Assembly (NCBI RefSeq): GCF_009914755.1 | Contig: NC_060927.1 | Direction: 5' to 3' (one strand) | Source of the DNA: the human T2T-CHM13v2.0 reference genome, Homo sapiens | Length of the DNA: 64,000 nucleotides | Shown: positions 3,298 to 60,867 of the stretch, in pieces | How the letters are laid out: the number at the start of each line of letters is the position of its first letter | How positions within the stretch are numbered: position 1 is the first letter of the stretch | Program-made: the position numbers and the translations under genes | The notes under the pieces: generated by a model | Database searches by the model: none | Told to the model about the DNA's origin: nothing | What the model saw: only the letters and a program-made list of their open reading frames with translations

Positions 3298-6200
3298 CGT
3301 ATTCTTGAAATCACTCTCCTTGGTAAATCTCAAGAACCACTGTATAGCAGATTATTTTCCCAAAATATCTTCTGTGTGGTACTGGAATTAACTAAAGAAG
3401 ATATTTATGTGAAAGTGTATTGTTTGTATTGTGTTTATTGTGTTTACTCTATGGAATGTATGAAAGTATTTATGAAGCTGTGGTACTGAAGAAGCCAGGA
3501 AAATCTTGGGCAGGATTGTGACATTAAACTCCCTTGTCCTTTTAAATATGTTTCTTCTTTTGGTGGTGCCTGATTTTCTCTCTGCTGTGACATCCAGAGC
3601 CCTCTCATTTTCTCTTCTCAAAATCTGATTTCAGGTCTATCACACTGTATGACTGGCATATTGGTGATATAAAAATTGTTTTCCAAAAGGATGTCACTCC
3701 AGATAGTGGACAAACCTAAAATGTCAGATTGGGGCTTCTTTAAAAAAAATTGCCACATGTAGCAGTTGTTTATTCCTTCTAGATAGGAAAAGAGCTTAGA
3801 TATTCAAAACTTTTAGTAAATATATGTTAAAGTCTAGGTGAATACAAAGCTTAATCTAGTACCTTGTGATTTTTCTGATTGGTTCATTGGAGCCATTTTA
3901 TCATAAACTGCTTCATTTCCTACCTCCCCAGCCCTACCTGCAATGTTGCAGGGAGTACCCAGTTAGGAATTTGGTCTTCTGTCTTGATATTTTCCAATAT
4001 TTCAAGCCAAGTAATGGAATTACACTATAAAGATTTGACTCCCAAATTTTCTAATTATTTTTCTCTGGCTAATTTCTTCTCTAGTGCCCATTGCATTCTT
4101 GGCATTATCTGTCAATCTGATGTAAGGGGTCACACTAAACAGAGCTAGACTTTTTTTTTTTTTTTTTTAGCTTTAATAGTTTACACTTTCCAGTGGCATG
4201 AAGAGTGGGGTACATAAGTTGTTTTGATCTTAAAATTCTGCTGGGTTAAGGAAGCAAAATTACTATTTGTGTCTGTAGGAAACTTAAGCAGAGTAAGCAA
4301 CAAGTCAGTAATAGTTTTTAAGCAATATTTGCTTCAAGTATTCAATAATTTGAATAAGCTGTCTAAATAAACCATATTTGATTATTTGAAGATTGTATGA
4401 ACCTATGTTAAAGTGACAGGTGAGTGGGAAGGCAGATATTATTAGAAAGCCAAGGAGGCTAACTAAATCTATGGATTCTCTGATGCACATGGGTATAATG
4501 TGGCAATCTTCCAGTTTGTATCAAAGGAACAGGAATGTTCTTACTGTCTGGATTACTGGTTGCTGTTGCAGAAATCCAATTTAAAGAAGACAAGATATCC
4601 TAGTGATTAAGTTTCTACTGAACTGCTTTAAGTGAAAACGATCTGCCCAACAGAGGAAAAGAGCGATAGCTTTGGTACAATAGTAAATAGAATGATGCGT
4701 CAGTGCAATACATGGTTAGAGTCAGCTACACTGCAACTTTGAATGTATAAATAGCAGTAATTGACATAAATCTCTAGGCAGATACTTTATAATAGGTGGT
4801 AGTGTTGGTTTTTAAACATTTAGTGGTGATGCAGTCCAAAGGATAATAATTTTTTATTTCTTTAGATTATGAGATCTATGACTTATATCCACATGTTGCT
4901 ACAGACATATAAGAAATAATTTAAAGTAATGATCAATATTTGAAATCATACCAATGAATTTTTGAAGCTCTATAAAGAAGATTGTAAGTATGTGTGATTC
5001 CAGTTTTCCAGATTTTAAATATATAAACATTGTGTCTAAAAGATAAATTTTCTAAATTGAAGGTGCTTATATTTGCAGTTAGCTTTAATATTGATATTTG
5101 AATTGATAATTTTAGATTATAGATGTTGTCATTGTACCTAGAGTGTTGTTATGAGGTTCTTCCACCCCCCAGATTGGTCATACTAAGAACATTTGATTGA
5201 ATTACTTTAGTTTTAAAGTTAGGTACCATTTTTTGTATAATATTATACTTGACATTAGACACACATTTTTTTCAAGAAAAAAGTGCTACCAATACTAGAG
5301 GATAAATCAGTGACCTATGAAATACTTTACAGACCTAAATTGTTTACCCAAAATGAAGTTTTATATTATTTTAGTATCACTGTAATACCAGGTGATCATT
5401 ATGTTTATAAATTTTTCTTTTTCCTTTGTAGAGGCTAATCACATAATTCAGGATTAAAAAATGTAGCAGCCTTTCATTTTCATCTCCAGTTTCCTGACTG
5501 GGTTGTTTTTCATGCCACCTTGAACGAAATATATCTATTTATACTACTCAATAAATATTTACTCAACTCCTATTATTTGAAATTCTTCTAGGTTCCAAAG
5601 TGAACAAAATAGACCAAATTGAATGCCCTCATAAAATTTAAATTAGTGGAATAAGACATGTAATAAATAAATAAATAAGAAAAACAGTATAGTATGTTAG
5701 TTATTTTTGAGTGCTATGTAGAAAAATTAGGGGAAAACAATAGGCAGAGTTAAGAAGTAGAATACCAAGGGGTGGGAAGGAAAGACTGTCACCTCCCTAT
5801 CTATTCTAATATTCAAAGCCACATAGCTAGGACATTCTTCCCTACAATTAACCAGACACCAGTGGTTGGTTGTTAATAATTTTTTCTTGATTGTATTTTT
5901 CTCTTTCTTTTACTGCGAAAAGTAGTCAGGCCCCTTACATTCTCATATGTCAGGGGAGTTTTCTGTTGTGGTGGTCAAAAGCAGGGTTTCCTTGTTTTCC
6001 GGATCTGAGTTCCTTGAGGGTGGGCAGGGCAGACTGGGAACACAAAGGCCAGGGCCACTGCGAGGGAGACACAGGAATAGCAAGACAGAGAAGATAGTCT
6101 CTCACACTTGGAAGAGAACAGAAGTCTGTCAGTGCCCTGGGCATGTGGCAGTACCCTGAAGAAGAATAGCACCATGGTATACCCAGGGAGGTTGAACCCA

Positions 6201-7589
6201 TGCTATCAAGGCTCCTAGACTCTGAAAAGATTATTTTGTGAAGGTGTGGCAAAGAAGGTGTTGGGCTGCCTAACTTCGAGGGACTTGAACAAAAATAATA
6301 TTCATGTAACCATGATGGGCTGAAGAGCAGTGATCTGCCCTCATTTTTCAAGCACCTTTTAGGCACAATGACTTTCTGATTTATGTGAACCTAGGGAATG
6401 TAAAAGGTGGCCCCAAAATGACAGAGATCAAATTTCTTATTATCCTGGTTGGATGAGCACTGTCACATTCAATTTGATTTTGCAAATATGAGGTAATATG
6501 ACATTGCTTATACATTCAAGTTTGAAAATTAAGATTTATCCTGCTACAACCCCAGGTTATTATTTATTACATCTTGATTATTTCTCTTGTAGAGGAAAAA
6601 AGTCTTAAAATAGGAAACAACAGAAGACATGAATTTCTGCCAGATTGCAAATTTCTCTCCACGGGCCTCACTGGTGGACAAACCCTTATGTATTTTTTTC
6701 CTTGATTTTGTTACTCCACATTAGTATGCAGAAATAGCACAAACCTTGTTCAGCGAGTCCAAAGTTATTGAAAAGAGACATTCAACTTCTTCCTTAAGGA
6801 AATGGGAAAGGAAAAATGAGGTTAAGGCTTTCAGTTGGTCAATAATACCTGATTAAAACAAGATCACATAGAACAGTGGTTTACAAACTTTTCACTTTTG
6901 GACACAGCTAGGGATTTTCTCAGACATAGAGCATTATCTTCTCTGTCTAGCCATATGTTTAGTCTCAAACCTCACTCTTGCTCCAAACATTTCCATGCTT
7001 ATTCATTTATCAAAAATAATCTTATTTATATTCATAAGTTTACATAAATTTTTAGTCTAAGTGTCTTTCTTCTCTTTCTATAATTATTACTTCCTTTATC
7101 CTCCACTGAAAATTTAATAAAACTGATTGAGAAAACTCAAGTTGCCAAAGTAATATAAACATATTAAGGATATAATATCCTTTCTTGGAATCATAGGATT
7201 TACTGGAATGTGATGATCATGATACCCACTCCTTCCTATGGTCTCATCTGGAGTTACTGGTATTAACCCTTGACTTTATAAGCTAGGTTCTTGGAAGTTT
7301 TTACTACAGAGCTGCCTTGAAAATGTTTAAATTTAAATTTTAAATTAAAAAAATTAAAATTTGTCTGTTTTGCTGTTGGGAGAGAAGCTTATTTGAAAAT
7401 TCTAAAATTAATAGATATACTCAGATTTTAGTGAAAGTCTTTAGAACCTCAAGCTAAGTACAAAAATAATTATTTTTGCATTGCAAAGTGAGGTACAAGA
7501 GTATGTATGCAGGATTTACAAGGAGGTGCCAAACTTGCTTGGCATACCTTAACCCAATTTTATAAAAGGGTGGAGGTTGAACATACAGA

Positions 7590-22711: not shown

Positions 22712-22829
22712 CCAGAAAAGTGTAAGAATAAAAAGAAGTGGTATAAAAGTGCACTACAAGAAGCATGTCTACTCTATGGATATTCTCATGAGCAAAGACT
22801 GGAAATGTGCTGCCTATCAAAACAACAAG
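22712..22829 (+). CDS. ZCWPW2: ZCWPW2 internal coding exon (118 nt, phase 0->1), PEKCKNKKKWYKSALQEACLLYGYSHEQRLEMCCLSKQQ
   Basis: Pyrimidine tract + TAG acceptor ending 22711; AAG|GTGTAT donor; open frame; peptide matches my recollection of ZCWPW2 just after the PWWP core; joins in frame with the next exon (G|AT = Asp). Confidence 0.93.
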
Positions 22830-36009: not shown

Positions 36010-36056
36010 ATAAATCCGAAACACATGACAAAGTTGCTGCACTGGTCAAGAAAAGG
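36010..36056 (+). CDS. ZCWPW2: ZCWPW2 internal coding exon (47 nt, phase 1->0), DKSETHDKVAALVKKR
   Basis: TTACAG| acceptor, AGG|GTAAGA donor; the peptide appears inside ORF 35826..36080; phases fit both neighbours. Confidence 0.93.
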
Positions 36057-39233: not shown

Positions 39234-40705
39234 TGAAGTAGTGCAGTATTGTTAATGTGGATAGGTTTATTTCAATCTTTGCTAAATGATATTTAGAATC
39301 AAAGACTATAAAGATAGTAACTAGTGTTTCTATATATTGCTTTTATTTGTACCAGTTGTTCTTAACAAAGGCAATACTATTCTCAGGCTCAGTGCCATGG
39401 GCCAGATCTGACCTTTAAACTATTTGTTGGTCTGCAATGAGATATGTACAGAAAGTAAGAGTAATCATTTATGAACTTGTATGGTAATTTGATAGAATTT
39501 TTTTTTGTCTGTTGAATCTGATAGCATAAAATGGAGCTTGTATTTTTTAATATGTCTTTGTTTTTTATTTAATTTTTTCTCTAGTAACTCATTTTTATTT
39601 TATTTAATAAAAGTATGTATCTCAGATAGACTGGGGAAAAAACTGATCCTTTACCACAGATAGTTTGAGAGATACTGTCTTAGGGGACATTTAAGAAATT
39701 TTTGGAGATGCTGTGGGTTATAGTAATTTTGGAGAATACAAGGTGTTTTACTAGGCAAGGATTAGAGACACTAGATATTCTGAGATGCATGGAACAGGGC
39801 TGTGTAAAACAACTGTCCAACATTTGGGATGATTTTGGATGTTCTGCTGGACTCGACAAACTACAAATATAATTTTATATTGAGTTAATACAAAATAATA
39901 CTGAAACACAGCATGTTAGGCTAAAAGCCAAGGAATGAGAAGGCTTGTTATAGAGAGGCAAACTGACATAGAATAGACAAATTAAATGGTTCTCGAAATT
40001 ATCAACTATTTTACTGAACACTTGGTAACATTTTCAACTACATATTTAGCCATAAAAGGTAAAAGTGTAGTTACCGAGAAACCGTGGAAGGAATTTACAG
40101 ATATGTAACAGGAAATTTGAGATGGCTTTTGTCTTAAAACTAAATATTACTTACTAAATTAATAGAGATACATGAAATGCATTGATTTCACTGAATTTTT
40201 AAAAATAAACATTTAGAAATATTTTTAGTGTTGCTAGCAAGATTATAAAACATTTCCACAAACATTGTCTTTCACTTCAGACCCCGAGGGGAAAACAAGG
40301 CAGACATTATTATCATTGTTTTATAAAGAAGGTCATTTGTGGTTAGAGAAGTTAAGGAACTTACTCTAGCCACATGGAACTTTTAGATATTTTTATTTAA
40401 TCTTAATTAGTTTTTCTTAGTTCCTATTAAAATATTGACAAGGTAGCCTCATTAAGATTTGAATGTTAATTTCACTTAGTAAGGTAGCTTTTATTTTTCT
40501 TTACAGTTTGGTTTTATAGATATTGAACATAATATTTTTAAAGACAGCCTGTTTTATATAAAATATTATAGATGTATAAAAGAAAGCTGTTGGTATGAAA
40601 GCAAAAGATAATGGCAAAATATATTAGGTAATTACTAAGTGCCAGGCACTACATACATGTTGTTTCATTTTATTCCAACAGCAATTATGGGGCATATTCA
40701 ATACG

Positions 40706-41116
40706 ATCTCTGGTTCACAAGTGAAGAAAACAGGCATAGGGATGTTGACCACTGCCAAAAACACAATGCAAAGATGGATGATAAAAAGTAAGTAACTGCT
40801 TCTAGAGCCCCTCTTCCTGGGTTGAAAATCTTAGTAGTTTGTATTTTGTTTATTTATATAAATACGTAAGTACTTATATACATTATATAATACATTATTT
40901 ATGTAATACAGGGTATTTATATACATTATATAATACATTATTTATATAATACATAAGTATTTATAGAAATAAACAAAATACAAACTGTTAAGATTTTCAA
41001 CCCAGGGTGAGAGGCTCTAGAATCAATTATTTACTTTTTTATCATCCATCTTTGCATTGTGTTTTTGGCAGTGGTCAACATCCCTATGCCTGTTTTCTTA
41101 CTTGTGAACCAGAGAT
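40706..41116. repeat. Inverted repeat, ~167-bp arms (40706-40872 / 40950-41116), AT-rich spacer with ~43-bp tandem unit
   Basis: Manual reverse-complement alignment: 11 substitutions + 2 indels. Confidence 0.93.
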
Positions 41117-42084
41117 AATATTTATATATTTATATAAACAAATGTGTATATACGTGTAAATGTTTTGTGATTTTTTTTTTACAATGAGATCTTATTATAT
41201 ATGTTACTCTATAGATTTAAATACTTTAGATTAACAAATATAGACCTGTTTTTAACATTCTGCATAGCATACCATAGTAGATGTATCAAAGTTTTATTGA
41301 CCAGTCATATATTGATGAATATGTAGATGTTTTCAAATTCCCGGTGTGGTGTGGTGCTTCTATAAGAAATGACTTAGTAAACATCCTTGGATATATATCC
41401 TTAAATGCTGGTACTATTATTTCTATAGGATAGATCCCAAAGAAGAATTGATGGATCAAAGCTACTCACAGTGTTTCCCTGCTTCCCTTGAATCAGGAGT
41501 GGACCTTGAGGAATAAGTTGTTAAAGTTATGCGTTGGCCTGTGCTGAGTTGTAGTATCAGTTGTTGCCACCTCTTTGAACCAAGATTTAAGAGTGTTGCC
41601 ATCTTCAATACTATTCCTAAGTGCCTATTTTGATTGGCATTCCTGGGGTCAAGTATGAGACTTCTATCTACAAGCTTCTGCCCTTCACTTAACTCCCTTT
41701 TTTAGCTCTTCAGCCATGTGTGATAGAGGTGTGTAGTACACGTGCACCTGCCTGATCACCTCTGCCCCACTGGCAGCAGTCTGAATGAAAGAGACTCTGA
41801 GTAAGTCACACTAATCTCTCTGAGTTCCACTTGATAAAAAGGAGTGGGTCTAGATTCTGTAAGTCCCTTCCTACTCTAATATCCCGTGAACTATAAGATA
41901 TTTACAACAGCTCATTAAGTATCTGTAGAATATCATAATACTTGTGCAGGCCAGAATTAATAGATATAATAAATATCTGAGTCAAGTGGGCCTAAGATAA
42001 ATAATAAAATAAGGACTAAAAAACAATAGTGTACCCAGCTGATGGTGTTACCTGTAATAGATTTTGAAAGATGTTTGAATAGAT

Positions 42085-56043: not shown

Positions 56044-56364
<321 letters not shown>

Positions 56365-57489
56365 TAATTCTGGAATATTCTTAGTCATTATCACTGCAAA
56401 TATTTTATCTTCCATTTTGTTTCTATATTATTCTTATGCAACTCCTTTCAGAAATATTCTTGACCTTATCATTCTATTCTCCATGATTCTTAGCTACTTT
56501 TCCAAAAGTATTTTTGTCTCTCACTGCTATAGATTTGGCGATCTCATCAAATCTACCTTCCAGAATAGTTATTCTTTCTTCAGTGTATCTAATCAGCTCT
56601 TTAATTCATCCATTGAATTTTAAATTCAATGACTTGACTTTTTTTTTTGATTCTAGAAGTGCTATTTGGCTCTTCTTAAAAATTCTTTCATGGCTCATAG
56701 ATATCATAGAAACCTGAAGTTGTTCATTATAGTTTCTAATCCATTTTAACCCTTTAATAACTTAAATACTTATTTTTAATTTAGGTTTATTGCTGTAATA
56801 CAAACTTACAAAATGAAAATCATAAATGTAGATAAAATTAGATGAATTTTTATAAAATGAGCATTCCCCTCTAACCAGCACCAGATCAAGAAGCAAAACA
56901 TTTCCAGAACTCCAGAAGTGTTCTCATGCCCTCTTCTAGTCACACTTCCTACCTCCAAGGTAACTGCTATCCTGACTTGTAGTGCCACAGTTTAGCTTTG
57001 CCTGTTTATAGTTTTATGTCAACTGAACTATACAGTGCAAATATAATTATTTTATGGGCTTTTTCTTCTCCAAATGATCTATATGCTCTTAATACTTGTG
57101 AATTACAAAGACCCTGTATACATTTTTACATTAATTTCTTGGCTCTTTTGCTTACTTTTGTCTTGGTGATTTTAGAAGTCCTAGCTAAGTCTTCGTGTTA
57201 ATTATTCGATTGGGAAATCTCAGGAGACATGAAATTGGATTTCTCACTTTAATGGTGTAGACCTAGTGTTTTCATTCTTTTAGGATTATTGCTTTTTGTC
57301 ATCTAATTCCCCATGTCAGACTGCGTACTACCTTATTGCTTTTGTGTCCCGGTGAGTGAAGTTTTTCCTATTTTCTTGTTATGGACAGAAAAAATCCTTG
57401 GAGTCCCTAGGCTTTATGGAACATTATTAGCACAGCTCTCTAACCAGTGTCACCCTCAAAACATGTCACTTATCTTTGCCTAGACATGA

Positions 57490-58418
57490 AAAGCCCAGCT
57501 CAAACTCCTTTGGCCCCTTATCCTGGTACAAATTTCTTTTGGGCCCTCACTATGTCAGTTTCCACCTATATATTAATAGCTTTGCATTTCATGTGCTTCT
57601 GGCATTTGATTTTTTTTTCTTTATCTAAAGGTTATATATGTGTGTACAACTTTAACGTGTTTTTATTACTATTTTTATGTGTTTGTGAAGTTATGTAAGG
57701 GAGAGTGGATAATATGGGAGGTAGGCATCCAAATCAAATCAGTTTAGCACTCCTGAAAGATGAGCTGATCCATGCAATTGCCGTGACTATGCAGTGGTTG
57801 ACTAGACGTAAAGATGTTGTTTAGGGTTATCAGCCGGGGTGTTTCTTCTGACCAAATTACTTGAACTGCATGGGACCCATTATTTTACTGAGCTGATTTA
57901 GTCCTATATGAACTAACTCATATTTTTGTTTTTGTGTTATAGAAGCAGACTTCTAAAAATAATATTGAAAAGAAGAAGCCCAAATTTAGAAAAAGGAAAA
58001 GGTATGCTTTTTGAAATTAAATAGTATTATGATAAAATTGAAATATATATTGGATTTAGTTTAGAAACACCCCGGCTAATAACCCTAAACAACATCTTTA
58101 CGTCTAGTCAACCACTGCATAGTCAGGGCAATTGCATGGATCTGCTCATCTTTCAGGAGTGCTAAACTGATTTGATTTGGATGCCTACCTCCTATATTAT
58201 CCACTCCCCCTTACATAACTTCATAAACACATAAAAATAGTAATAAAAACACGTTAAAGTTGTACACACATATATAACCTTTAGATAAAGAAAAAATATC
58301 AAATGCCAGAAGCACATGAAATGCAAAGCTATTAGTATATAGGTGGAAACTGACATAGTGAGGGCCCAAAAGAAATTTGTACCAGGATAAGGGGCCAAAG
58401 GAGTTTGAGCTGGGCTTT
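57490..58418. repeat. Inverted repeat, 357/356-bp arms (57490-57846 / 58063-58418), 216-bp spacer containing a ZCWPW2 exon
   Basis: Manual alignment: 8 substitutions + 1 indel; ORFs 57447..57698(+) and 58192..58398(-) share APYPGTNFFWALTMSVSTYILIALHFMCFWHLIFF. Confidence 0.97.
57943..58001 (+). CDS. ZCWPW2: ZCWPW2 internal coding exon (59 nt, phase 0->2), KQTSKNNIEKKKPKFRKRK (basic, NLS-like)
   Basis: ACTAAC branch point at 57912-57917, T-rich tract, TAG| acceptor, AAG|GTATGC donor; in frame with flanking exons. Confidence 0.93.
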
Positions 58419-59432
58419 ATTGGAAACAGAATCTCACAATCCTTGATTCTGTTTCACTTGGAAAATACTGTGTTTACAGTTTTCTAAAAGAATTAATAGA
58501 ATTATAAGTAGTAGTCTTAGAAGTACGGAAAAAGCTTTATATTCATGAAATATTTTGAAACAGAACTTTTAAAGATTAATATCTTATGAGCAATCAGAAG
58601 AGAATGAGGTTTTTAGTTTAAAAATAGTTAATGTAAACCAGAAACAGGTTTTCATAGTGAACAAATAAGCCACAGATGACAAGTTTTAGTGTTTATCGTT
58701 GAACCAGTCATTTTTTAAAGAATGGTAATCAGTGCTGTGTTAGGAGGGGTCCTACTCAAAAACAAGGACTGACACCAATAGGTAGCCCTTCTTTGTACTT
58801 TTTCAGAAGATGAATAACTAAATTTTAAAAATGGACTTCCACTGCCTTATTTCATTACACTTCACAGTAACCCTATCAAATTGTTAGGAAGTATATTATA
58901 ATCTCCATTTTAAAAAATGAAGAATCCCTAGCTTGGAGAAGTTAGTGACTTTCTCAAGACCTTATGGTTAGAGAAAGTACATTTGAGCAAACTTTTTTCT
59001 GACTCTGTGTCAGCAACATAGAATTGTGGAAACAGTATGGATTTTGCAGTCTGAGAGAGTTTAGTTCTACCATGTTCCACCATTTACCTAAGTTGTCAAA
59101 TTTCTTGTTTTTCTCTGATACCTCAAATTCTCAGTTTCTTTATATAATGACAGTAACAATTAGTAGGTGTTTTGGAGGAGGATTATGAAAAAGCCAGTGT
59201 AAGGTGCTTGGTAAATTGTTAATGCTTTGCACCTAGTGAGAGCTCAAATCAGTATTAGTCTTTTTTGTTTTTCACTGCAACATACTTTGTTACTACATAA
59301 AACAACCAAGAGAATTACCTTTAGAAAATATATGCATTTATAATCTACAGTTACCAATGAATAGGCACAAATGGTCATTTAAATATTCATGATTGATCTT
59401 TTGAAACTAAATCTGTCAAATTCTTTTTCTAG

Positions 59433-59500
59433 GAAAGCAATTTTAAAATGCTCTTTTGAAAATGTTTATTCTGATGATGCCTTATCAAAGGAGAACAGGG
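59433..59500 (+). CDS. ZCWPW2: ZCWPW2 internal coding exon (68 nt, phase 2->1), (R)KAILKCSFENVYSDDALSKENR
   Basis: TTCTTTTTCTAG| acceptor, GGG|GTATGT donor; completes the Arg codon from the previous exon; matches recalled ZCWPW2 sequence. Confidence 0.92.
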
Positions 59501-59594
59501 GTATGTGAAAGCCTGTCCTGCTTTTAGTTCTTTAACCTATATATAATTCCACAGAATGTAGTTGTAGTCCTTTGAAGGAAAAAAAAAGATTTCC

Positions 59595-59626
<32 letters not shown>

Positions 59627-59835: not shown

Positions 59836-60173
<338 letters not shown>

Positions 60174-60594
60174 AGCACCAGCAGCTGTGGGAAGAAATAC
60201 CAACAACTATACATTTCAATCCAGACTTCTTCATTCCAAACTTACTGGGATCCTAGGAGTGCCAAAGGGAGAGAAGAAAGAAAAGCAGAAGACTGGGGCT
60301 TCCAACTAAATTGTCGTTGGTTAGAACACAGTAGAGTGAATGTGGAATGCAGGGAGAAAGTTTTAGTTTTCAAAGGCAATTTCCTCCTTCTACATTTTCT
60401 TTAGTCTTGAAAAGCAGTGAAATGCTTATTTGCAATGTGGAACTTTGGCAGTCATGTTCAAAGCCCATTAAACCCTGAGGAGTTATCAGTGATATATTCC
60501 CTTTTCCTTGAAGCCACTCCCAGGGGATCCTATGGCATTGCATTTCAATTGGCTAAATAAGTCAGTCGTTGTAGTCTTATTAAAAGAAAGGAAA

Positions 60595-60867
60595 GCCAGG
60601 TGCAGTGGCTCATGCCTGTAATCCTAGCACCTTGGGAGGCTGAGGTGGGAGGATCCCTTGAGCCCAGGAGTTAAAGACCAGCCTGGGCAACACAGTGAGA
60701 CCTCATCTCTACTAAAATTAAAAAAAAAAAAATAACTGGGCATGGTGGCACATGCCTGTAGTCCTAGCTACTGGGAAAGCTGAGGTGGGAGGATCACCTG
60801 AGCCCAGGAGTTTGAGCTTGCAGTGATCTATGATCACGCCACTGCACTCCACTCTGGGTTACAGAAA
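60595..60867 (+). mobile_element. Alu (AluJ-like), lacking tail
   Basis: Dimer with GAGCCCAGGAG in both arms. Confidence 0.85.

What the first reader, a model, noticed from the sequence alone, without database searches (positions are those of the whole stretch)
57490..58418. A ~357-bp near-perfect inverted duplication cages one frame-shifting ZCWPW2 exon: candidate RNA-hairpin splicing switch
Seen: arms 57490-57846 and 58063-58418 are reverse complements with 8 substitutions + 1 indel (~97.5%); 3 of the mismatches would still pair as G-U in RNA. The arms are not a pair of Alus or other recognisable inserted TEs. The 216-nt loop holds the ACTAAC branch point, acceptor, 59-nt exon and donor, with the stem closing 96 nt upstream and 61 nt downstream. 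Established: long intronic inverted repeats around an exon can promote skipping or back-splicing and are ADAR substrates. Inference: stem formation favours skipping, giving ...VKKR-ESNFKMLF-stop (TGA at 59457-59459). That predicts NMD, or a zf-CW/PWWP-only protein lacking the basic KKKPKFRKRKR patch. ZCWPW2 is a germline-enriched reader linked to the PRDM9 recombination pathway, so a lineage-specific structural dimmer would matter. Arm divergence suggests a recent origin or ongoing arm-to-arm conversion.
Basis: partly seen in the sequence, partly recalled or inferred. Interest (0 to 1): 0.85.

Follow-up and report, generated by a model that had tools for sequence, protein, structure and literature searches.

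The report
Unique inverted duplication around ZCWPW2 exon
A 357-base stretch of intron next to an ancient ZCWPW2 coding exon was copied backwards to the exon's other side, so the pre-mRNA should fold into a very long hairpin with the exon in its loop; the structure is real and rare, but nothing yet shows that it controls splicing.

Summary
Arms 57490-57846 and 58063-58418 are reverse complements with 8 substitutions and 1 indel. The 216-nt loop holds the 59-nt exon and all its splice signals.

The arms are single-copy. Each hits only itself and its partner in the 3.1-Gb assembly, and the flanks and loop are unique. This is a local inverted duplication, not a transposon pair.

The predicted RNA hairpin is extreme: -671 kcal/mol, z = -54. 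The exon peptide is present in 53 of 59 placental ZCWPW2 protein clusters, so the exon predates the repeat.

The repeat is already catalogued, without comment, as one of 197 long tight inverted duplications in human pre-mRNAs (Barak 2020, Table S8). It has under 1x RNA coverage there and a weak editing signal on one arm.

A second unique inverted duplication with no exon lies 17 kb upstream in the same intron, which points to a recurrent neutral mutation class.

My reading: a template-switch duplication, probably ape-age, that folds co-transcriptionally and is an ADAR substrate. The "splicing switch" is plausible but untested. Skipping would give the stated frameshift and NMD.

The parts
57490..57846 (+). 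Left arm (357 nt) of the inverted duplication; probably the original intron sequence that served as template.
   Evidence: alignment; only two copies in the genome; 0 nt of junction microhomology if this arm were the insert.
57847..58062 (+). 216-nt loop/spacer holding the branch site, polypyrimidine tract, exon and donor.
   Evidence: unique in the genome; folds only weakly on its own, -27.9 kcal/mol.
57912..57917 (+). ACTAAC branch-point-like motif; its branch A is 27 nt upstream of the acceptor.
   Evidence: predicted unpaired probability 0.92-0.96.
57943..58001 (+). ZCWPW2 coding exon, 59 nt, phase 0, encoding the basic patch. Skipping it shifts the frame.
   Evidence: Hub annotation; splice sites and translation; peptide present in 21 of 21 aligned orthologues and 53 of 59 clusters.
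58063..58418 (+). Right arm (356 nt), reverse complement of the left arm; probably the derived copy, inserted 61 nt downstream of the donor.
   Evidence: 4 nt (TTT + A) of junction microhomology if this arm is the insert, P about 0.025 in a window-wide null.
36010..36056 (+). Upstream coding exon, whose donor would join 59433 if the caged exon were skipped.
   Evidence: Hub annotation.
59433..59500 (+). Downstream coding exon. After skipping it is read out of frame and ends at TGA 59457-59459.
   Evidence: Two more coding exons follow at about 64857-64988 and 68393-68554.

Best explanation
This is a genuine, single-copy, local inverted duplication of ZCWPW2 intron DNA.

Origin (inferred). A roughly 357-bp segment lying 96 nt upstream of an ancient 59-nt coding exon was copied in reverse-complement orientation to a site 61 nt downstream of the exon's donor. 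The most likely direction is left arm as source and right arm as copy. The likely mechanism is one replication template-switch or fold-back event, the '3-2-1-4' type of the four-point model. The arms differ by 2.3%, which suggests an age of about 10-25 million years if they have not converted each other.

Behaviour in RNA (predicted). In the sense pre-mRNA the right arm can start pairing with the left arm from the loop side as soon as it is transcribed. It has no competing partner in the genome. A duplex of about 357 bp should therefore form, leaving the exon and all its splice signals in a 216-nt loop.

Consequences (inferred). The duplex is a nuclear ADAR hyper-editing substrate. It perturbs exon inclusion at most partially. 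It is tolerated as a neutral or slightly deleterious passenger because it is intronic and the gene is weakly and narrowly expressed. It is not an evolved switch.

Status of each step. The anatomy, uniqueness, thermodynamics and the age of the exon are shown. The direction and date of the duplication, folding in vivo, editing and the small effect on splicing are inferred.
For: - Arms: 348 of 357 columns identical, with sharp ends.
- Only two copies of the arm exist in 3.1 Gb. The left flank, right flank and loop each hit only themselves. There is no target-site duplication (flanks).
- Hairpin energy is -671.4 kcal/mol, z = -54.4, and 0 of 20 shuffles fold as well. The arm-arm duplex alone is -642.6 kcal/mol.
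- The exon peptide is conserved across placental mammals: 21 of 21 aligned orthologues and 53 of 59 clusters. The exon is therefore older than a 2.3%-diverged repeat.
- Junction microhomology is 4 nt for the right arm as insert and 0 nt for the left arm. The null gives P(>=4) = 0.025.
- The event type matches one that creates inverted repeats in the human-chimp comparison (PMC5453318, passages).
- A second unique inverted duplication (about 180-bp arms, 91% identical) sits in the same intron with no exon inside.
- The repeat is one of 197 long tight inverted duplications in human RefSeq pre-mRNAs. Its coverage is FPKM 0.0073 and its editing index is 5.4% on one arm (PMC7006430 Table S8).
- Splice-signal accessibility is similar with or without the stem.
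- The RefSeq selected transcript includes the exon (hub annotation).
Against: - No outgroup genome could be searched, so the direction, date and absence of arm-to-arm conversion are unverified.
- The microhomology evidence is weak, about P 0.05 after testing both arms.
- The geometry is more extreme than that of inverted Alu pairs, which do shift exons from constitutive to alternative (PMC2533698, abstract). Repeats of 30-40 nt suffice for back-splicing (PMC4201285, passages). A real effect on splicing is therefore quite possible.
- Barak et al. report depletion of long tight duplexes even in pre-mRNAs, so such a structure may not be strictly neutral.
- The editing signal rests on less than 1x coverage, appears on one arm only, and is 0 on the other arm.
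Confidence: 0.6

Rival explanations
1. The hairpin loops out the exon and causes substantial skipping, possibly regulated. That lowers productive ZCWPW2 mRNA through NMD, or yields a zf-CW/PWWP protein without the basic patch. It would be a lineage-specific dimmer of a PRDM9-pathway reader.
For: - The stem closes 96 and 61 nt from the splice sites, has no competing partner, and is extremely stable.
- Skipping gives a frameshift and a stop with two exon junctions downstream.
- The truncated product keeps both reader domains.
- Base-paired intronic Alus shifted an exon from constitutive to alternative in experiments (PMC2533698, abstract).
- Liang and Wilusz suggest that repeat pairing may interfere with exon definition (PMC4201285, passage).
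Against: - No skipping isoform or junction data were available.
- The RefSeq selected transcript includes the exon.
- Splice signals are not sequestered.
- The exon has a consensus branch site and purine-rich sequence.
- A sister inverted duplication in the same intron encloses nothing.
- No paper links ZCWPW2 to exon skipping. Two ZCWPW2 function papers contain no 'isoform' or 'splic'.
Confidence: 0.15
2. The flanking complementarity drives back-splicing. The result would be a circular RNA of the 59-nt exon, or of this exon plus its neighbour, at the expense of linear mRNA.
For: - Flanking inverted repeats of 30-40 nt are sufficient for circularisation in plasmid assays (PMC4201285). This pair is 357 bp and immediately adjacent to the exon.
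- Weaker inverted Alu-like pairs also bracket this exon together with the next one.
Against: - The exon is only 59 nt, and longer exons circularise more efficiently than shorter ones (PMC4201285, passage).
- The two papers that hold both ZCWPW2 and circRNA are, judging by title and abstract, about atrial fibrillation and newt regeneration rather than this locus.
- No back-splice data were available here.
Confidence: 0.07
3. The repeat is old, predating apes, and its arms stay similar through arm-to-arm gene conversion or selection on pairing. On this view 2.3% divergence understates its age.
For: Inverted repeats can convert each other (established for sex-chromosome palindromes; recalled). 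The exon itself is ancient.
Against: - The 9 differences are spread along the arms. The longest identical tract is 83 bp, so there is no sign of a recent conversion tract.
- The older sister repeat in the same intron has drifted to 91%, which shows that local arms do diverge here.
Confidence: 0.1
4. The hairpin is a source of small RNAs, either as an hpRNA/endo-siRNA locus or as a precursor of a structured RNA family.
For: It is a long, near-perfect intramolecular duplex. Such hairpins give endo-siRNAs in fly testis and mouse oocytes (recalled).
Against: - There are 0 Rfam matches at E <= 1 in 56500-59600.
- The arms are unique intron sequence, so any siRNA would target only this intron.
- The duplex is nuclear and intronic.
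- No small-RNA data were available.
Confidence: 0.03
5. The arms are the terminal inverted repeats of a fold-back or MITE-like transposon, or two inserted copies of one repeat family.
For: The architecture (long inverted arms with a short spacer) resembles fold-back elements.
Against: - Only two copies exist in the genome, and they are the two arms.
- The flanks and loop are unique.
- No target-site duplication is present.
- The spacer holds an exon conserved across placental mammals.
- Caveat: the search can miss very old, diverged repeat relics.
Confidence: 0.02

Closest known systems
[quoted passage not shown] 2020, Genome Biol 21:26, PMC7006430)
   Same: This repeat is literally one of the 197 rows of their Table S8: chr3, 357 nt, 97.479% identity, 216-nt spacer. 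Like most of the set it is intronic and very weakly expressed.
   Different: The paper treats the set statistically, in terms of innate immunity and purifying selection. It does not name ZCWPW2 (0 occurrences in the supplements). It does not note that an exon lies in the loop or that the arms are non-repetitive. The spacer is among the shortest: by my hand count, 7 of the 63 rows I read have a spacer of 320 nt or less.
Inverted Alu pairs flanking exons: alternative splicing (Lev-Maor et al. 2008, PMC2533698) and circRNA biogenesis (Liang and Wilusz 2014, PMC4201285)
   Same: Both involve intronic complementary sequences on either side of an exon that pair in the pre-mRNA, are edited, and can change the splicing outcome.
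   Different: Here the arms are unique sequence, not Alu. They are 97.5% rather than roughly 70-88% complementary (compare the other pairs). They have a single possible partner and lie only 96 and 61 nt from the splice sites. No splicing effect has been measured here.
Template-switch mutations that create inverted repeats and hairpins (Loytynoja and Goldman 2017, PMC5453318; Monttinen et al. 2023, PMC10710096, listing only)
   Same: In both, a reverse-complement copy of nearby sequence is placed a short distance away in one event. The order of switch points matches type 3-2-1-4. There is short microhomology at the junction.
   Different: The described events are short, and their filter mentions 14 bp for the copied fragment. 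Here the copied fragment is 357 bp with a 216-bp gap. The ancestral state could not be checked.
Hairpin RNA (hpRNA) / endo-siRNA loci and sex-chromosome palindromes with arm-to-arm conversion (recalled, not from a call)
   Same: Both are long, near-identical inverted arms with a short spacer in germline-expressed DNA.
   Different: The arms here are intron sequence with no other target. No small RNAs or conversion tracts are shown. The arms are 100 to 1000 times shorter than sex-chromosome palindromes.

Membership tests
Long tight inverted duplicated sequence (IDS) in a pre-mRNA (Barak 2020 definition) | Both arms lie inside one RefSeq pre-mRNA on the same transcript strand | tested here: met
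   Both arms lie in ZCWPW2 introns flanking exon 57943-58001 (hub annotation).
Long tight inverted duplicated sequence (IDS) in a pre-mRNA (Barak 2020 definition) | Length >300 bp and identity >96% | tested here: met
   357 nt, 348 of 357 identical = 97.48%. The same values appear in Table S8.
Template-switch / fold-back inverted duplication | Reverse-complement copy of adjacent single-copy sequence, with no other copies in the genome | tested here: met
Template-switch / fold-back inverted duplication | Microhomology at the switch junctions | tested here: inconclusive
   4 nt for the right arm as insert and 0 nt for the left arm; null P(>=4) = 0.025 per arm.
Template-switch / fold-back inverted duplication | An outgroup shows the empty site, i.e. 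one arm absent | not testable with these tools
   No primate or other mammalian genome is held. states that G000 has no relatives here.
Transposon with terminal inverted repeats / fold-back element | Multiple copies in the genome | tested here: not met
   2 matches, namely the two arms, in 3.1 Gb.
Transposon with terminal inverted repeats / fold-back element | Target-site duplication flanking the element | tested here: not met
   The outer flanks are unrelated to each other (flanks).
Exon regulated by RNA looping (cassette exon between complementary intronic sequences) | Complementary sequences in both flanking introns are predicted to pair | tested here: met
Exon regulated by RNA looping (cassette exon between complementary intronic sequences) | A skipped isoform is observed and depends on the pairing | not testable with these tools
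   No RNA-seq is available and only one of four RefSeq transcripts is shown. No paper was found.
circRNA-producing exon | Back-splice junction observed | not testable with these tools
   No junction data. Literature search negative.
circRNA-producing exon | Exon length in the range that circularises efficiently | tested here: not met
   The exon is 59 nt, and longer exons circularise better than shorter ones (PMC4201285).
ADAR-edited long dsRNA (editing-enriched region) | A-to-G clusters on both arms | tested here: inconclusive
   In Table S8 the editing index is 5.36% on arm 1 and 0 on arm 2 at FPKM 0.0073 (about 0.6x coverage). In the muscle pool the values are 0 and 0.72%.
Known structured RNA family (Rfam) | Covariance-model match | tested here: not met
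   0 matches at E <= 1 in 56500-59600.

The most novel reading that the evidence does not exclude
An ape-specific template-switch event placed a 357-bp perfect partner next to a conserved, frame-shifting ZCWPW2 exon. The resulting co-transcriptional hairpin diverts a meaningful fraction of human germ-cell transcripts into skipping plus NMD, or into back-splicing. ADAR or helicase activity sets that fraction. Humans and other apes would then carry a structural dimmer on a dual histone-mark reader that recent mouse work ties to meiotic break formation and male fertility.
Probability: 0.1. Interest if true: 0.75.

Novelty: new member of a known kind. Interest (0 to 1): 0.4.

Why it matters
Two 2026 papers report that ZCWPW2 reads both PRDM9-deposited histone marks and is needed for normal meiotic recombination and male fertility in mice (abstracts; passages).

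A duplex this long, this perfect and this close to a frame-shifting exon is about the strongest natural test case one could ask for. It tests whether pre-mRNA looping alone can alter exon choice, with no Alu background and a single possible pairing partner. If it had an effect, that would be a lineage-specific change in the dosage of a recombination-pathway gene.

If it has no effect, that is also informative. It would show that even a 357-bp stem closing about 60-100 nt from the splice sites is tolerated by co-transcriptional exon definition.

The question can be settled with public testis RNA-seq and ape genome assemblies.

Tried and rejected
- **Transposon origin:** rejected. The arm, both flanks and the loop are single-copy, and there is no target-site duplication.
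- **Known RNA family:** none found.
- **Exon born from the repeat:** rejected, because the peptide is conserved across placental mammals.
- **NMD escape:** I checked whether the stop created by skipping would escape NMD by lying close to the last junction. It does not, because two coding exons follow.
- **Stem sequestering the splice signals:** it does not. Unpaired probabilities are similar in the loop closed by the stem and in the nascent RNA before the right arm exists.
- **Literature:** ZCWPW2 with circRNA gave 2 papers on other subjects, judged from their abstracts. ZCWPW2 with ADAR gave 4 papers whose titles and abstracts concern other subjects, and none was opened. ZCWPW2 with 'exon skipping' gave 2 papers. 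I opened one, which names ZCWPW2 only as a low-speckle-proximity control gene. The other is on oyster gonads by its title. Two ZCWPW2 function papers contain no 'isoform' or 'splic'.
- **Supplements of the dsRNAscan preprint (PMC11838218):** They may list this duplex with an editing or confidence score.
- **Dating with outgroups:** not possible, since no primate genome is held.
- **2.6-kb inverted repeat in the same gene:** I asked whether it is of the same kind. It is not. Its arms belong to a multi-copy repeat family, and no ZCWPW2 coding match falls in its spacer.

Full report

Yes. The repeat finder reports two abutting inverted segments, 57613-57846/58063-58296 and 57490-57617/58291-58418. 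A global alignment of 57490-57846 with the reverse complement of 58063-58418 gives 357 against 356 nt. There are 8 substitutions and one 1-nt indel in a T-run. Three of the substitutions pair as G-U in the sense RNA.

Complementarity ends abruptly at all four arm ends. The 216-nt spacer holds ACTAAC at 57912, a pyrimidine tract, the 59-nt phase-0 exon 57943-58001 and its donor. The stem closes 96 nt upstream and 61 nt downstream.

As RNA, 57490-58418 folds into one hairpin of -671.4 kcal/mol. Twenty shuffles average -210.9 +/- 8.5, giving z = -54.4. With flanks the value is -697.5. Among the 25 inverted pairs within 5 kb in the window, this is the only long pair above 88% complementarity.

**2. 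What is it?**

It is not a transposon pair.
- The left arm hits only itself and the right arm in the 3.1-Gb assembly.
- The left flank (57000-57489), the right flank (58419-58900) and the loop each hit only themselves.
- There is no target-site duplication.
- No Rfam family matches at E <= 1.

One caveat applies. The genome search can miss very old, diverged repeat relics, and I had no repeat library.

The exon is old. I used the neighbouring exon as a query (a first try was one residue too short) and recovered 59 ZCWPW2 protein clusters from placental mammals. All 21 that I aligned carry the basic segment encoded by 57943-58001, including aardvark, elephant and tamandua. Across all 59, 53 carry it. 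The 6 without it are 3 predicted cetacean isoforms, 1 yak entry, 1 184-aa entry and 1 cluster with an unrelated Pfam domain.

The exon therefore predates a repeat whose arms differ by only 2.3%. The repeat is a local inverted duplication of intron sequence built around a pre-existing exon.

**3. Which arm is the copy, and how old is it?**

If the right arm is treated as an insertion, its junctions share 4 nt (TTT before the insert and at its end, plus one A). If the left arm is the insertion, they share 0 nt. A null from 20,000 random 356-nt 'inserts' in this window gives P(>=4 nt) = 0.025. This is weak evidence that the right arm is the derived copy.

It fits a microhomology-guided template switch. 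In the four-point model of Loytynoja and Goldman the order of switch points would be 3-2-1-4, a type that creates an inverted repeat (PMC5453318, passages). The copied piece here (357 bp) is much longer than the short events they describe.

With 8 substitutions in 356 sites, the Jukes-Cantor distance is about 0.023. Using recalled human mutation rates of 0.5-1.0 x 10^-9 per site per year, the arms separated roughly 11-23 million years ago, provided they never converted each other. The differences are spread out and the longest identical tract is 83 bp, so there is no sign of a recent conversion tract. No primate genome was available, so this date is an inference.

**4. It is already in a catalogue.**

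Barak et al. 2020 (PMC7006430; passages of the main text, Table S8) list 197 inverted duplicated sequences longer than 300 bp and above 96% identity inside human RefSeq pre-mRNAs. One row is chr3, arms of 357 nt, 97.479% identity, spacer 216 nt. That is exactly this repeat, in the coordinates of an older assembly.

| Pool | Editing index, arm 1 | Editing index, arm 2 | FPKM |
|---|---|---|---|
| 15 tissues | 5.36% | 0 | 0.0073 |
| Muscle | 0 | 0.72% | 0.0006 |

The FPKM is the minimum of the two arms. The paper's conversion is 1 FPKM = 88.64x, so the 15-tissue value is about 0.6x coverage. The sample sheet in the supplement, shown, includes testis rows. The repeat falls below the paper's 'expressed' threshold of FPKM 0.01.

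The paper does not name the gene (0 occurrences of ZCWPW2 in its supplements) and says nothing about an exon in the loop. By my hand count of the 63 rows I read, 7 have a spacer of 320 nt or less, so this is one of the tighter members. I did not read the other rows for this count.

**5. Context that lowers the case for design.**

The same 21.9-kb intron holds a second unique inverted duplication at about 40694-40872 / 40950-41127. It is about 91% identical, has an AT-rich spacer of about 77 nt, and exists only here in the genome. It encloses no exon.

Table S8 also lists a second ZCWPW2 entry 99 kb upstream, with 2602-nt arms at 99.6% identity. I confirmed it in this assembly, with arms of 2606 nt and a 413-nt spacer. 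Its arms belong to a multi-copy repeat family, and no ZCWPW2 coding match lies in its spacer.

Inverted duplications thus arise repeatedly in this gene without any exon involved.

**6. How it most likely works.**

Shown:
- The duplex is thermodynamically overwhelming, at -642.6 kcal/mol for the arms alone.
- It has no competing partner.
- The splice signals lie in the loop, 61 nt or more from the stem. Their predicted accessibility is about the same in the closed loop as in the nascent RNA before the right arm exists. For the branch site the unpaired probabilities are 0.92 and 0.96. For the 5' splice site they are 0.45 and 0.20.

Inferred:
- The loop-proximal ends of the arms are the first to meet, so the stem can nucleate about 61 nt after the donor is made and zip up as transcription proceeds.
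- The product is a nuclear duplex of about 357 bp with 87 and 131 adenosines on its arms. That makes it an obvious ADAR substrate.
- The exon has a consensus branch site and purine-rich sequence and is included in the RefSeq selected transcript. I therefore expect inclusion to remain the main outcome.

If the exon were skipped, the frame shifts to ...VKKR-ESNFKMLF-stop at 59457-59459. Two coding exons follow, so NMD is expected (rule recalled). Any protein made would keep zf-CW and PWWP.

**7. Precedents.**
- Base-paired intronic Alus shifted an exon from constitutive to alternative (PMC2533698, abstract).
- Repeats of 30-40 nt are enough to drive back-splicing, although longer exons circularise better than shorter ones (PMC4201285, passages). 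That counts against a 59-nt circle.
- Long tight duplexes are depleted even from pre-mRNAs (PMC7006430), so the repeat may be mildly deleterious rather than neutral.

**8. Verdict.**

The feature is rare: 1 of 197 in human genes by one definition. Its geometry around a conserved frame-shifting exon of a meiotic gene is striking.

The 'splicing switch' rests on no data. The simplest reading is a fairly recent template-switch duplication carried as a passenger. I found no paper that discusses it. Public testis RNA-seq and ape assemblies would decide the matter quickly.

Noticed in passing
window 40694-41127: A second unique-sequence inverted duplication lies in the same ZCWPW2 intron. Its arms are about 40694-40872 and 40950-41127, about 91% identical with three 1-nt indels. 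The AT-rich spacer of about 77 nt carries short ATACATTAT-like units. The arm hits only itself and its partner in the whole genome. No exon lies inside.
   Followed up: partly
L008:1877-4482 and 4896-7501 (about window -41624 to -36000, outside the window): A 2.6-kb inverted repeat, 99% complementary with a 413-nt spacer, lies in an upstream ZCWPW2 intron. It is also listed in Barak 2020 Table S8. Its arms belong to a multi-copy repeat family (4330 first-look candidates), so it is repeat-derived, unlike the finding. The zf-CW coding exon lies about 1 kb upstream of it (L008:486-815). ZCWPW2 thus holds 2 of the 197 catalogued long tight inverted duplications.
   Followed up: partly
window 56087-56379 versus 59837-60105 and 60594-60732: Inverted repeat pairs of 70-81% complementarity lie within stretches the hub lists as masked repeats. 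They are probably Alu-type, but the family was not checked. They bracket both exon 57943-58001 and exon 59433-59500, so a weaker outer pairing could compete with or add to the unique hairpin.
   Followed up: no
window 22712-22829 (exon): In the conserved motif ALQEA-x-LLYGY, the human window encodes C. Macaque and most placental orthologues have Y, and the orangutan entry has R. The position is also variable in a few other mammals (N, H, T).
   Followed up: no
P0001 (orangutan ZCWPW2 isoform 3, partial), alignment A1 columns about 226-275: This predicted isoform carries an extra 30-residue-scale insert between the PWWP region and the exon equivalent to 22712-22829. The insert is absent from 19 of the other 20 aligned orthologues; beaver P0005 carries a different insert at the same place. 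It looks like an exonised repeat, but this was not checked.
   Followed up: no
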